Sequence record: KC295538
Strand: one strand, 5' to 3'
DNA: 64,000 bases
Origin: Escherichia phage PBECO4
In this document: one piece after another, positions 18,482-20,573 of the stretch
Layout: the number at the start of each line of letters is the position of its first letter
Position numbering within the stretch: position 1 is the stretch's first letter
Translations under genes and position numbers: made by a program
Notes under the pieces: generated by a model
What the model saw: only the letters and a program-made list of their open reading frames with translations
Told to the model about the DNA's origin: nothing
The model's database searches: none

Positions 18482-18649
18482 TTATCATCGGTGCACGATA
18501 TGCATCAGTACTTCTTCGTCGAGTTCAGTACTTAAATATGCTTTGTACATACACTTAACACGTATAACATCCCACATTCTAGAATCTAATGGTAGATAAT
18601 AAGGATTCCACTTTAATTTTTGGCGTTTCATCCACTCTTCATGTGTCAT
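18482..18649 (-). CDS. MTHEEW-family small protein (copy b, diverged)
   Basis: 55-aa ORF found by manual translation (below ORF-track cutoff); N-term MTHEEWM; ATGA stop/start overlap with copy a. Confidence 0.45.
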
Positions 18650-18810
18650 GTTCGTACCATTATTTCAATAAAGAACCACGGATACGCTTCATGGTTTATA
18701 AGTTTATCGTATTCTGCTGGGTCTGACATGATTTCCCAATGATACTTTCTCCAGTTACCGAAACCTGCATATCTAAAATTAATGTCATTCATCCATTCTT
18801 CATGCGTCAT
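18646..18810 (-). CDS. MTHEEW-family small protein (copy a)
   Basis: 54-aa ORF by manual translation; MTHEEWMNDINFRYAGFGNW...WFFIEI; AAAGG RBS upstream. Confidence 0.45.
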   Translation of the reverse strand: MTHEEWMNDINFRYAGFGNWRKYHWEIMSDPAEYDKLINHEAYPWFFIEIMVRT

Positions 18811-18834
18811 GGTTTTTTAACCTTTAATTAAAAT

Positions 18835-18916
18835 TGGCCCAGGCGACAGGACTCGAACCTGCATACTCCAGTTACTCGATTAACGACGATTTAGAAGACC
18901 GTTGAGATACGCCCGG
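18835..18916 (-). tRNA. atypical tRNA-like RNA (possible tRNA-Arg UCU-like or stable tRNA-like species)
   Basis: canonical T-arm gcagg-ttcgagt-cctgt, acceptor ccgggcg/cgcctgg (one G-U), 3' GCCA; internal stem-loop acggt-cttctaa-atcgt; no standard D-arm could be folded by eye. Confidence 0.4.
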
Positions 18917-18920
18917 ATTT

Positions 18921-19010
18921 TGGCGGTGAAGGTGAGATTTGAACTCACGGAGGACTTTCGCCCTCGACGGTTTTCAAGACCGTTGCATTAAACCGCTCTG
19001 CCACTTCACC
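18921..19010 (-). tRNA. tRNA-Ser (anticodon UGA), long variable arm; CCA encoded
   Basis: acceptor ggtgaag/cttcacc, anticodon stem-loop acggt-cttgaaa-accgt, T-arm gtgag-ttcaaat-ctcac, 3' GCCA. Confidence 0.7.
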
Positions 19011-19053
19011 AGTACTAATAATTATATCACATCTTTATGTGATGTCCCATTAT

Positions 19054-19326
19054 TTATGATTCAGTTTGAGGATTAAATTTGATAAATTCATCTTTATGTT
19101 CATCTTCAAACGCAATATCTTCTACGTATTCAGGCCAAATCGTAGTGTCTCCTTGATAAAAGCGATAATTATCAAATACTGCACTACGCGTTCTTCCCTG
19201 TTCCCAGCCAATCGTACAGTCATGATATACATCCCCACTACTTGTACGAATACTAATGGTGTCTTGAGTTTCATAAAGAACTTCAATGCGTGTGTTACGA
19301 TTTACGTTGAATTTTTCAAAATGCAT
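19054..19326 (-). CDS. hypothetical protein
   Basis: 90-aa ORF. Confidence 0.45.
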   Translation of the reverse strand: MHFEKFNVNRNTRIEVLYETQDTISIRTSSGDVYHDCTIGWEQGRTRSAVFDNYRFYQGDTTIWPEYVEDIAFEDEHKDEFIKFNPQTES

Positions 19327-19379
19327 AATATTATCCTCATCTAGAACCAGTGATAATCATTATATAATGAATTAATGAT

Positions 19380-19706
19380 TTATGCAAGTGTTTTAGATAC
19401 ACCGACACCAATAATTCCAGTGATATCGATATGGATATTGGCAAGTTGATTACTATCATATGGGTTTGTTTCTGTAATAACCAATGTTGTATCATTGACT
19501 AAAACCACAGTACCTTTTACACGATAACCATGTAGTAGTACTTGAACCTCATCTTCAGGTTTTAATGATTGAATAACTTCAAATAAAGTTGTTTCCATTT
19601 TTTGTATTCCTTGTTTAGTTTTGATTATTTGACTTTCTAAATGCCAGTTCGCATATAAACCAGGGTTTTCTGGTATCCAAAACATATGACCTGAAAAGAT
19701 TTTCAT
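19380..19706 (-). CDS. hypothetical protein (true start may be internal Met near 19598)
   Basis: 108-aa ORF; 5' part overlaps MTHEEW copy c in another frame. Confidence 0.4.
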   Translation of the reverse strand: MKIFSGHMFWIPENPGLYANWHLESQIIKTKQGIQKMETTLFEVIQSLKPEDEVQVLLHGYRVKGTVVLVNDTTLVITETNPYDSNQLANIHIDITGIIGVGVSKTLA

Positions 19707-19815
19707 CTCTTAATATATCATAATGTACCTGACGAATGCCATTCCCAAAGCAGTCATGTTCTTTATGCTGTTTGGACATCCATTCTTCGTGTGTCATTTT
19801 ATGTATCCAGTACAA
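19615..19815 (-). CDS. MTHEEW-family small protein (copy c)
   Basis: MYWIHKMTHEEWMSKQHKEHDCFGNGIRQVHYDILRDENLFRSYVLD...WFICELAFR. Confidence 0.55.
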   Translation of the reverse strand: MYWIHKMTHEEWMSKQHKEHDCFGNGIRQVHYDILRDENLFRSYVLDTRKPWFICELAFRKSNNQN

Positions 19816-20014
19816 TTAAGTGCTGCATCTCTTCTTTTGTAAAGAAAGCACTGTCATGAACAATAGAACCAGTCTTATCAACTACATAGTACAGGTTTCC
19901 ATATTGTTGAACATCAATTCCGTCAATTTCAATTCGTGGAAAATTTTGGACAATACAGTCTGCACCGAAAACCTCACCAAAAAAGTTTCCTGCTGGATTG
20001 ATAATGACTTTCAT
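19799..20014 (-). CDS. hypothetical protein
   Basis: 71-aa ORF. Confidence 0.45.
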   Translation of the reverse strand: MKVIINPAGNFFGEVFGADCIVQNFPRIEIDGIDVQQYGNLYYVVDKTGSIVHDSAFFTKEEMQHLIVLDT

Positions 20015-20040
20015 ATTAAATCACCTTTATTGTATTTTTG

Positions 20041-20112
20041 AGCAGGTATGGGGATTTGAACCCCACCCCCAGAATCGGAAGTACTGTATGCCGCCATCAA
20101 CACTTTACCTGC
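20041..20112 (-). tRNA. tRNA-Gly (anticodon UCC, by-eye fold; D-arm imperfect)
   Basis: acceptor gcaggta/tacctgc, anticodon stem-loop cagta-cttccga-ttctg (one mismatch), T-arm tgggg-ttcaaat-cccca. Confidence 0.5.
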
Positions 20113-20138
20113 ACGTAATAACTATTATATTTATCTTA

Positions 20139-20333
20139 CTATTTTTTGTCTCTAATAGCAAGCTCGTAGATGAACCAGTGGTTGGAATCTTCGTCCAAAA
20201 CCAATGATTCGAACGTTTTTTTATCGTTCAAAACATCATAATGGCCTTGGCGTATACCAAATCCAAAATGATCATGTTTATATTTTAGTGACTCTATCCA
20301 TTCTTCATGTGTCATTTTATGTATCCAGTTCAA
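20139..20333 (-). CDS. MTHEEW-family small protein (copy d)
   Basis: MNWIHKMTHEEWIESLKYKHDHFGFGIRQGHYDVLNDKKTFESLVLDEDSNHWFIYELAIRDKK. Confidence 0.55.
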   Translation of the reverse strand: MNWIHKMTHEEWIESLKYKHDHFGFGIRQGHYDVLNDKKTFESLVLDEDSNHWFIYELAIRDKK

Positions 20334-20393
20334 TTAAGTGTTTCATTTATTCTTCTGTAAAGAAAGCATTGCAATGGACAATGGAAAAGGTTA

Positions 20394-20573
20394 TTATATT
20401 TTTTTGTCTCTAACCGCAAGCTCATAGATGAACCAACGATTTCCATTCTCATCTAGTACATATGATTCGAACTTATATTTGTCTCGTAAAATATCGAAAT
20501 GACCATCAATAAATCCATTTCCAAACTGGTCATAACGTTTTTTCATCATTGCCATCCATTCTTCATGTGTCAT
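20394..20573 (-). CDS. MTHEEW-family small protein (copy e)
   Basis: 59-aa ORF by manual translation: MTHEEWMAMMKKRYDQFGNGFIDGHFDILRDKYKFESYVLDENGNRWFIYELAVRDKKI; ATGA overlap with upstream ORF. Confidence 0.5.
   Translation of the reverse strand: MTHEEWMAMMKKRYDQFGNGFIDGHFDILRDKYKFESYVLDENGNRWFIYELAVRDKKI

What the first reader, a model, noticed from the sequence alone, without database searches (positions are those of the whole stretch)
18482..20573. Five-copy small-gene family (N-terminus MTHEEW) interleaved with the tRNA genes
Five ORFs of 54-66 aa begin with a nearly identical start (atgacacatgaagaatgg, giving MTHEEW): 18646..18810, 18482..18649, 19615..19815, 20139..20333 and 20394..20573. 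Copies c, d and e also share FG.G, H.D.L.D and WFIYELA.R; copies a and b share mainly the N-terminus. Three are below the ORF-track cutoff and were found by manual translation. Two pairs are joined by ATGA stop/start overlaps. The nucleotide-level identity at the starts suggests recent duplication or recombination between copies, and the position between tRNAs resembles the small accessory ORFs of the T4 tRNA region.
Basis: seen in the sequence. Interest (0 to 1): 0.6.

Follow-up and report, generated by a model that had tools for sequence, protein, structure and literature searches.

The report
Small four-helix phage gene family
The five "MTHEEW" ORFs are real, conserved genes of a jumbo coliphage: a family of about 55-residue four-helix proteins of unknown function, with a probable sixth member, that duplicates and decays among the phage's tRNA genes and has not been described before.

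Summary
Five minus-strand ORFs start with MTHEEW (5 matches against 0 expected). The window is a 121Q-like (Asteriusvirus) jumbo coliphage.

All five are full-length homologues, not just N-terminal look-alikes. They all match phrog_10970. Copy b aligns to the rest in register even without its first 7 residues (hhalign P 5.7e-8).

A sixth, divergent member is probable: 20570-20755, joined to copy e by an ATGA overlap.

They are real genes. Orthologue dN/dS is 0.1-0.47. AlphaFold gives a confident four-helix domain (pLDDT 92) with no match among solved or viral structures.

Paralogues are saturated at synonymous sites. Codons 2-5 vary synonymously, at genome-typical frequencies for His and Glu. 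MTHEEW fits a helix N-cap (capping box plus hydrophobic staple), so the constraint is on the protein. Only copies c and d share a real DNA repeat (91 nt, 87%), which includes a remnant of the upstream gene.

Copy number differs between related phages, and 121Q carries a pseudogene. Uncultured relatives carry runs of 16-21 members next to the same tRNA cluster and homing endonucleases.

Function is unknown. My best guess is soluble, non-virion binder or inhibitor modules that diversify by birth and death. The find is moderately interesting and adds a new member to a known kind.

The parts
20570..20755 (-). Member f: a divergent, probable sixth family member (61 aa, MQPKTFDEW...DDFGTYFSIAVMDIKR). 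Its TGA overlaps the ATG of copy e (ATGA).
   Evidence: It was recruited by the iterated profile (E 2e-14). hhalign of f-type against MTHEEW-type gives prob 55%, P 1.2e-4, in register. f-type genes sit inside the family arrays of L006, L007, L017 and L018. It matches phrog_31562.
20394..20573 (-). Member e (59 aa)
   Evidence: It is 100% identical in 17 phage records.
20316..20393 (-). Non-coding remnant of the 3' end of a second copy of the 71-aa gene, interrupted by a stop codon, lying between e and d.
   Evidence: The region up to about 70 nt upstream of d matches the equivalent region upstream of c at 60-95% per 20-nt block. I translated it by eye.
20139..20315 (-). Member d (58 aa; true start ATG at 20315)
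   Evidence: The AlphaFold model has pLDDT 92.2.
20040..20112 (-). tRNA-Gly(UCC), 27 nt downstream of d. A promoter-like site (GAGACA-17-TATAAT, 20152-20124) lies inside the 3' end of d.
19799..20014 (-). 71-aa gene (phrog_25670) whose stop lies 1 nt before the ATG of c. It was the partner in the duplicated two-gene cassette.
19615..19797 (-). Member c (60 aa; true start ATG at 19797). It is unannotated in E9.1, JP4 and phAPEC6 because the downstream ORF was over-extended.
18921..19010 (-). tRNA-Ser(UGA), preceded by a promoter-like site at 19048-19021.
18838..18916 (-). Borderline tRNA, the homologue of 121Q 'tRNA-Leu(taa)'. It ends 27 nt upstream of the ATG of a.
   Evidence: Rfam 29.3 bits against a gathering score of 29. 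ARAGORN does not call it. It differs by 1 nt from the 121Q element.
18646..18810 (-). Member a (54 aa)
18485..18649 (-). Member b (54 aa). Its ATG overlaps the TGA of a (ATGA).

Best explanation
SHOWN
- The region holds five certain paralogues (a-e) and one probable paralogue (f) of a lineage-restricted family of 54-61-residue, soluble, acidic-to-neutral proteins.
- They fold as a compact four-helix domain with no match among solved (PDB) or predicted viral (BFVD) structures.
- They lie in the tRNA region of a 121Q-like (Asteriusvirus) jumbo coliphage.
- Each member directly follows, or overlaps, the stop of the upstream ORF and has only a weak Shine-Dalgarno sequence.
- Each orthologue is under purifying selection, while the paralogues are old and very divergent.
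- The family evolves by birth and death. Copy number and type differ between close relatives. There is a gene remnant in this window and a broken copy in 121Q. Uncultured relatives carry runs of 16-21 members beside the same tRNA cluster, where homing endonucleases also sit.

INFERRED
1. MTHEEW is conserved because it is the N-terminal cap of helix 1. T2 is the N-cap and E5 is position N3, which makes a capping box. M1 and W6 form the hydrophobic staple. In so small a domain this cap would be essential, so the constraint is on the protein, not on the DNA or RNA.
2. The weak Shine-Dalgarno sequences and adjacent stops suggest the genes are translated by coupling to the upstream gene.
3. Double-strand breaks made by homing endonucleases, together with the short shared starts, would drive unequal recombination in this region. 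That would explain the turnover.
4. Function, my committed guess at about 35-40%: each paralogue is a stoichiometric protein-binding module, an inhibitor or adaptor. It would act on a polymorphic host protein, or a competing element's protein, during host takeover or counter-defence. The array would be an arsenal of specificities.
For: Real family:
- All five match phrog_10970 over their full length (E 1e-25 to 1e-29).
- a against c/d/e gives z 7-8, and c/d/e among themselves z 20-30, without the N-terminus.
- The b profile against the rest gives P 5.7e-8 without the N-terminus.

Coding and selected:
- Orthologue dN/dS is 0.10-0.47.
- Paralogue pS is 0.6-0.9.

Structure:
- pLDDT 92.2, pTM 0.67, helices at 3-14, 23-30, 32-40 and 47-54.
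- BFVD returns only the family itself.
- Pfam, NCBIfam, PADLOC and PDB-sequence searches return nothing above chance.

Protein-level constraint on the start:
- Synonymous codon variation is at genome frequencies for His and Glu.
- Across 36 members, position 2 is T/S/N, position 5 is E/Q/D/K, and W6 is invariant.

Restricted distribution:
- 20 clusters among 5.8 billion proteins, and 23 representatives among 1.84 billion.
- Only Escherichia and Salmonella jumbo phages among cultured phages.
- Absent from the syntenic RaK2 region.

Birth and death:
- Differing complements in E9.1, 121Q, CMSTMSU, Turkey3 and JP4.
- A gene remnant in this window and the truncated 121Q gp115. The intact version of 121Q gp115+gp116 is in L018.

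Arrays beside tRNAs and endonucleases: L006, L007 and L018.

Gene spacing and start sites: ATGA or TAAAATG junctions and weak Shine-Dalgarno sequences.

Soluble and acidic to neutral: pI 4.7-7.9, negative GRAVY.

Not in the virion: gp094c-gp101c are absent from the 62-protein phAPEC6 virion proteome, which did detect a 4.7-kDa protein (PMC7247149).
Against: - Nothing here measures expression, a binding partner or a phenotype. The binder/inhibitor function rests only on size, fold, solubility, tandem diversification and genomic neighbourhood.
- Purifying selection within orthologues (omega well below 1) is not the signature of an ongoing arms race. Only a against a2 reaches 0.5-0.76.
- The link to tRNAs may be inherited synteny, since all carriers are related Rak2/121Q-like phages with the same tRNA set. 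It is therefore not independent evidence for a functional link.
- The capping-box reading rests on a predicted model. It also requires the initiator Met to be retained, and a Thr at position 2 usually allows its removal.
- Membership of f rests on intermediates and a modest profile-profile score (prob 55%).
Confidence: 0.55

Rival explanations
1. The family is functionally tied to the tRNA cluster. The small proteins would be immunity-like inhibitors of tRNA-cleaving host effectors such as anticodon nucleases and tRNase toxins. The neighbouring phage tRNAs would replace the tRNAs that were cut. The array would hold one inhibitor per nuclease variant.
For: - Members lie next to, or between, tRNA genes in Asteriusvirus and in the lineages sampled by L006/L007 and L018.
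- Small helical proteins in divergent tandem arrays resemble bacterial immunity-gene arrays. This comparison comes from my own knowledge and was not tested.
- The authors of the phAPEC6 paper suggest the phage may counter the Prr anticodon-nuclease system (PMC7247149).
Against: - The carriers are related phages with the same tRNA set, so adjacency can be inherited synteny.
- RaK2 keeps the tRNA cluster without the family.
- No direct evidence of any kind.
Confidence: 0.12
2. The conserved start is a nucleotide-level element, such as a gene-conversion tract, a recombination site or a translational operator. The copies would be recent duplicates.
For: - A 23-nt motif is shared by all five starts.
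- c and d share 91 nt at 87% identity, running upstream of the ATG.
- Thr codon ACT is unused in the 28 copies, although it makes up 45% of Thr codons genome-wide.
Against: - Synonymous variation at codons 3 and 5 matches genome codon usage, and codon 2 also varies.
- The paralogues are synonymous-saturated.
- Members at 25-40% identity from other lineages keep the amino acids T/S-x-x-E-W with different codons.
- Upstream sequences of e and of c/d are unrelated (26-29% identity).
Confidence: 0.08
3. The ORFs are chance or decaying reading frames in the spacers between tRNA genes, with no protein function.
For: - They are very short and have weak Shine-Dalgarno sequences.
- Copy c is left unannotated in several GenBank records.
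- Pseudogenes and remnants exist in the region.
Against: - dN/dS is 0.1-0.47.
- The profile is conserved over its full length across lineages.
- The AlphaFold model is confident.
- Spacing relative to upstream stops is conserved in all lineages.
Confidence: 0.03
4. They are small DNA-binding or transcription regulators (helix-turn-helix-like) that control expression of the tRNA region.
For: - The domain is small and helical, with a short helix 2 and helix 3 separated by one residue.
Against: - pI is 4.7-7.9, with net negative charge in most members.
- No Pfam or NCBIfam DNA-binding family reaches significance.
Confidence: 0.05

Closest known systems
PHROG family phrog_10970 (unknown function), plus phrog_31562 for member f
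   Same: All five MTHEEW proteins match phrog_10970 over its whole 56-position profile. Member f matches phrog_31562.
   Different: PHROGs gives no function. It does not link the two families. Nothing published mentions the motif (0 papers). Tandem arrays, the fold and the pattern of evolution have not been described.
Small accessory ORFs and homing endonucleases of the phage T4 tRNA region (e.g. segB) - from my own knowledge
   Same: Small ORFs are interleaved with phage tRNA genes in a plastic region. In relatives this region also carries homing endonucleases: HNH in JP4 and Turkey3, T5orf172 in L006, NUMOD4-HNH in L007 and L018.
   Different: There is no detectable sequence relationship, since tblastn hits only 121Q-like phages. 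Here the ORFs form one paralogous family. To my knowledge the T4 ORFs do not.
Lineage-specific expansions of small proteins in jumbo phages (e.g. about 35 zinc-ribbon copies in Bacillus phage G; Iyer et al. 2021, PMC7824862)
   Same: A single small domain is amplified many-fold in tandem in a jumbo phage: 6 copies here, and 16-21 in L006 and L007.
   Different: The fold differs (four-helix, no metal ligands). No role is proposed in the literature. The location is tied to the tRNA cluster.
Tandem immunity-gene arrays of bacterial polymorphic toxin and colicin systems (four-helix Im7/Im9-type proteins) - from my own knowledge
   Same: Small helical proteins, tandem and divergent copies, and closely packed or overlapping genes.
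   Different: No fold or sequence similarity was found. No toxin gene is nearby. The carriers are phages, not bacteria.

Membership tests
phrog_10970 | Full-length match to the family profile | tested here: met
   Five of five proteins match, E 1.3e-25 to 1.1e-29, profile positions 1-55/56.
MTHEEW family (as defined here) | Homology beyond the shared N-terminal hexapeptide | tested here: met
   Without residues 1-7, a against c/d/e gives z 7-8 and c/d/e give z 20-30. The b-type profile against the rest gives hhalign 94.7%, P 5.7e-8, 44 of 47 columns, with a reversed control at P 0.16.
MTHEEW family (as defined here) | Member f (20570-20755) belongs to it | tested here: inconclusive
   hhalign gives prob 55%, P 1.2e-4, in register. 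The iterated HMM gives E 2e-14 through intermediates. f-type genes lie inside the arrays of four other loci. PHROGs places f in a separate family.
Helix N-terminal capping box with hydrophobic staple | S/T/N/D at the N-cap, E/Q/D at N3, hydrophobic residues at N' and N4, and a helix that starts right after the N-cap | tested here: met
   Sequence: M1(N')-T2(N-cap)-H3-E4-E5(N3)-W6(N4). The model's helix runs 3-14. Across members, position 2 is T/S/N, position 5 is mostly E/Q/D, and W6 is invariant. This rests on a predicted structure only.
T4 tRNA-region ORFs | Sequence homology to T4 proteins | tested here: not met
   tblastn of three members against 50,697 phage records hits only Escherichia and Salmonella jumbo phages.
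T4 tRNA-region ORFs | Small ORFs positioned between phage tRNA genes | tested here: met
   The tRNA genes flank d, the 71-aa gene, c, a and b.
Colicin/bacteriocin-type four-helix immunity proteins | Fold similarity to solved immunity proteins | tested here: not met
Helix-turn-helix DNA-binding proteins | HTH fold, or a family match, together with a basic surface | tested here: not met
ATCUN-type N-terminal metal site (NH2-X-X-His) | A free N-terminus with an invariant His at position 3 | tested here: inconclusive
   M-T-H fits the pattern only if Met1 is retained. H3 is at least 90% conserved in the core family, but it is K, F or Y in divergent members. Metal binding cannot be tested here.
Known anti-defence proteins (anti-CRISPR, anti-restriction and others) | A match to a curated anti-defence family | not testable with these tools
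   No anti-defence library is available. PADLOC, which holds defence systems, gave only a chance-level hit.

The most novel reading that the evidence does not exclude
The family is a hypervariable arsenal of immunity-like inhibitors aimed at tRNA-targeting host defences. It would be kept next to the phage's replacement tRNAs as one counter-defence island. Amplification to 16-21 copies in uncultured relatives would reflect the diversity of host nucleases those phages meet.
Probability: 0.1. Interest if true: 0.7.

Novelty: new member of a known kind. Interest (0 to 1): 0.35.

Why it matters
Most jumbo-phage genes have no assigned function. For phAPEC6 the figure is 83% of predicted proteins (PMC7247149).

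This work turns six anonymous or unannotated ORFs into one defined family. The family now has:
- a confident structural model with no match among solved or predicted viral structures;
- a clear evolutionary mode, tandem birth and death in the tRNA and homing-endonuclease hotspot;
- a simple structural reason for its striking invariant start.

It also corrects annotation. Copy c is missing from several GenBank records, and 121Q gp115 and gp116 are two halves of one broken gene.

If the proteins prove to be inhibitors of host systems, the arrays would be a ready-made panel of natural specificity variants. As it stands this is a tidy but ordinary accessory gene family.

Tried and rejected
- Pfam, NCBIfam, PADLOC and PDB-sequence searches gave nothing above chance.
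- The first AlphaFold run used only 21 close sequences and gave pLDDT 70. Foldseek against PDB with that model returned only noise. It was replaced by the 35-sequence run.
- The afdb50 library was not available.
- The search for related loci failed with the broad alignment. Two distant members found nothing in IMG/VR.
- IMG/VR and JGI metagenome scans with the close alignment returned only Asteriusvirus copies.
- The syntenic RaK2 region holds no member.
- Literature: no paper contains 'MTHEEW'. The jumbo-phage overview, the Sharanji paper and the phAPEC6 paper do not mention the family, and none has expression data for this region. One search was badly framed and wasted.
- Rejected ideas: a nucleotide-level element at the starts, spurious ORFs, a DNA-binding HTH, virion components, and a conserved His/Asp metal site. 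The last fails because H25 is M in b-type members, and H3 is K, F or Y in divergent members.
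Full report
**What the window is**

The 17-22.5 kb stretch is 98% identical to Escherichia phage vB_EcoM_E9.1. It matches 57 records of 121Q/RaK2-like jumbo phages, genus Asteriusvirus for the closest ones. All genes in this stretch are on the minus strand.

**Checking the observation**

- The degenerate start ATGACNCAYGARGARTGG occurs exactly five times in 64 kb, with none expected by chance.
- The ORFs are a 18646-18810, b 18485-18649, c 19615-19797, d 20139-20315 and e 20394-20573.
Coordinate 18482 is off by one codon.
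- a/b overlap by ATGA.
- The other ATGA overlap joins e to the upstream ORF 20570-20755.
- A self-comparison shows two informative repeats among 12 short families. One is a 23-nt start motif in 5 copies. The other is a 91-nt, 87% repeat that links the starts and upstream regions of c and d.

**Is it one family?**

Yes.
- All five match phrog_10970 end to end (E 1e-25 to 1e-29).
- With the first seven residues removed, a still matches c/d/e (z 7-8; 0 of 2000 shuffles), and c/d/e match each other at z 20-30.
- Pairwise, b is only marginal (z 0-3).
- However, a b-type profile aligns to the profile of all other types over 44 of 47 columns: hhalign 94.7%, P 5.7e-8, reversed control P 0.16.
- An intermediate 'a2' type exists in 121Q, CMSTMSU, Turkey3 and JP4.
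- No other ORF in the window matches the five-member profile.

**A probable sixth member**

- A profile iterated through divergent relatives recruits the 61-aa ORF 20570-20755, here called f (E 2e-14).
- Profile-profile support for f is moderate: 55%, P 1.2e-4, in register.
- f-type genes sit inside the family arrays of four other loci.
- I call f a probable sixth member.

**Are they genes?**

- Orthologue comparisons against E9.1, 121Q, CMSTMSU, Turkey3 and JP4 give dN/dS of 0.10-0.47.
- Paralogues within the window are saturated at synonymous sites (pS 0.61-0.89).
- The duplications are therefore old, and each copy is maintained by selection.

**Structure**

- With a 35-sequence alignment, AlphaFold2 models copy d at pLDDT 92.2 and pTM 0.67.
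- The model is a four-helix domain with helices at 3-14, 23-30, 32-40 and 47-54.
- A shallower alignment gave only pLDDT 70.
- In BFVD it matches only the family itself, plus a weak 61-aa 121Q protein that is probably the f orthologue.
- Pfam, NCBIfam, PADLOC and PDB-sequence searches return nothing above chance.
- The proteins are soluble and acidic to neutral, with pI 4.7-7.9.

**Why the starts are identical**

- In 28 Asteriusvirus copies the codons vary synonymously: Thr ACA/ACG 21/7, His CAT/CAC 21/7, Glu GAA/GAG 23/5.
- The His and Glu ratios match genome usage (CAT 0.77, GAA 0.80). Thr usage departs from it, because ACT is never used although it makes up 45% of Thr codons genome-wide.
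- The nine L006 copies that match the start pattern use other codons, and some have other residues at positions 4 and 5.
- The constraint is therefore on the amino acids.
- The model's helix 1 begins at residue 3, so T2 is the N-cap, E5 is N3, and M1 and W6 are N' and N4. This is the textbook capping box (S/T-x-x-E) with a hydrophobic staple, a point from my own knowledge of helix-capping motifs.
- Across 36 members, position 2 is T/S/N, position 5 is mostly E/Q/D, and W6 is invariant.
- This explanation is inferred from a predicted model, not shown.

**Recombination footprints**

- The region up to about 70 nt upstream of d is 60-95% identical, per 20-nt block, to the region upstream of c. 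That upstream region of c is the 3' end of the 71-aa gene 19799-20014.
- Upstream of d this segment contains an in-frame stop, so 20316-20393 is a remnant of a second copy of that gene.
- A two-gene cassette (71-aa gene plus MTHEEW gene) was therefore duplicated and partly deleted.
- 121Q gp115 (MTHEEWLVQTEHLVIASMKF*) and gp116 are the two halves of a member that is intact in locus L018.
- Complements differ between genomes:
  - This window and E9.1: a, b, c, d, e.
  - 121Q: a, a2, b, c, d.
  - JP4: a2, b, c, d, e.
  - Turkey3: a, a2, b plus two others.
  - CMSTMSU: four.

**Distribution**

- The family is rare: 20 clusters among 5.8 billion proteins, and 23 representatives at 50% identity among 1.84 billion.
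- Nearly all are 49-64 aa and start with MTHxEW.
- Cultured carriers are only Escherichia and Salmonella jumbo phages.
- The syntenic RaK2 region lacks the family.
- Uncultured contigs show much larger arrays:
  - L006 (78-kb contig) has 26 consecutive 50-66-aa genes. Of these, 21 match the iterated profile. They lie directly upstream of tRNA-Leu, Gly, Ser, Arg and Met, with a T5orf172 gene among the tRNAs.
  - L007 has 16 members upstream of tRNA-Leu and Gly, a NUMOD4-HNH gene, and tRNA-Ser, Met and Asn.
  - L018 has 9 members on both sides of tRNA-Leu, Gly and Ser.
  - L017 has at least 8 members in 1.9 kb.
- A flanking L006 protein is 32-37% identical to RaK2 and 121Q proteins. These are distant relatives with a syntenic tRNA region, so the tRNA association may be inherited rather than independently evolved.

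**Expression context**

- Family genes have weak Shine-Dalgarno sequences and sit directly after upstream stops (ATGA, TAAAATG). That spacing suggests translational coupling.
- Promoter-like sites with a perfect TATAAT end 7-12 nt upstream of each tRNA block: 20152-20124, 19048-19021 and 17233-17205.
- It follows that a and b, and the 71-aa gene with c, may be co-transcribed with the tRNAs. This is inference only, because consensus matches are no more frequent than in shuffled sequence.
- None of the phAPEC6 orthologues (gp094c-gp101c) is among the 62 virion proteins found by mass spectrometry, although a 4.7-kDa protein was detected (PMC7247149). A non-structural role is likely.
- No paper mentions the motif, and no transcript data for this region were found.

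**Interpretation**

- Shown: a real, selected, lineage-restricted family of four-helix mini-proteins that evolves by tandem birth and death in the tRNA and homing-endonuclease hotspot.
- Inferred: the N-terminal motif is a helix cap, and endonuclease-induced breaks plus short shared starts drive the turnover.
- Function is not shown. My committed guess is that the proteins are soluble binder or inhibitor modules with paralogue-specific targets, used in host takeover or counter-defence. I put this at about 35-40%.
- A specific link to tRNA-targeting defences is the most interesting reading that cannot be excluded, at about 10%.

**Verdict**

The family and its position are right. The 'recent duplication' reading and 'only the N-terminus shared' are wrong.
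- The find is a new member of a known kind: a lineage-specific expansion of a small accessory protein in a jumbo phage.
- Interest is moderate to low.

Noticed in passing
window 18838-18916 (-): A seventh, borderline tRNA that ARAGORN misses (Rfam 29.3 bits against a gathering score of 29). It differs by 1 nt from the element annotated tRNA-Leu(taa) in 121Q. JP4 and Sharanji carry a tRNA-Arg in the same slot, so this position looks like a slot where one tRNA replaces another.
   Followed up: partly
window 17974-17993, 18044-18063, 18453-18472 (-): Three copies of TTGACTAAATA[GA]TTCAGTAC (0.06 expected by chance). The third continues into TG-TATAAT, giving a near-consensus sigma-70 promoter just downstream of copy b and upstream of the 117-aa gene 18060-18413. 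This looks like a repeated promoter module.
   Followed up: partly
window 20152-20124, 19048-19021, 17233-17205 (-): Each tRNA block is preceded by a promoter-like site with a perfect TATAAT that ends 7-12 nt before the tRNA 5' end. The first lies inside the 3' end of copy d. This suggests separate tRNA-led transcription units that continue into the small ORFs.
   Followed up: no
window 19380-19706 (-): The 108-aa ORF is probably over-extended. The likely start is the ATG at 19598 (METTLFEV, 72 aa), with the best Shine-Dalgarno among its neighbours (AAGGAA). 121Q gp122 starts there as well. The longer calls made in E9.1, JP4 and phAPEC6 (gp097c) overlap copy c and leave it unannotated.
   Followed up: partly
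L002 (121Q) 4168-4341: 121Q gp115 (20 aa, MTHEEWLVQTEHLVIASMKF) and gp116 (32 aa) are the N- and C-terminal halves of one disrupted family member. The intact version is at L018 7692-7862. gp117 (53 aa) may be another divergent member.
   Followed up: partly
L006 7167-11879; L007 7223-10639; L017 49-1940: Uncultured relatives carry very long runs of this family: 26 consecutive small genes in L006, 18 in L007, and at least 8 in the 1.9-kb L017. Most overlap by 4 nt or are separated by only a few bases, and the L006 and L007 runs end at a tRNA cluster.
   Followed up: yes
L004/L005 257-781; L006 12779-13336; L007 11157-11756; L018 11002-11526: Homing-endonuclease genes (HNH, NUMOD4-HNH, T5orf172) sit among the tRNA genes in several relatives, but not in the equivalent part of this window. 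In JP4 and Turkey3 the HNH gene is flanked by two tRNA-Ser genes.
   Followed up: no
(P0001, P0006): Some family proteins are labelled 'Escherichia coli' in NCBI but lie on contigs of 357-370 kb. These are most likely jumbo-phage genomes deposited within bacterial assemblies.
   Followed up: no
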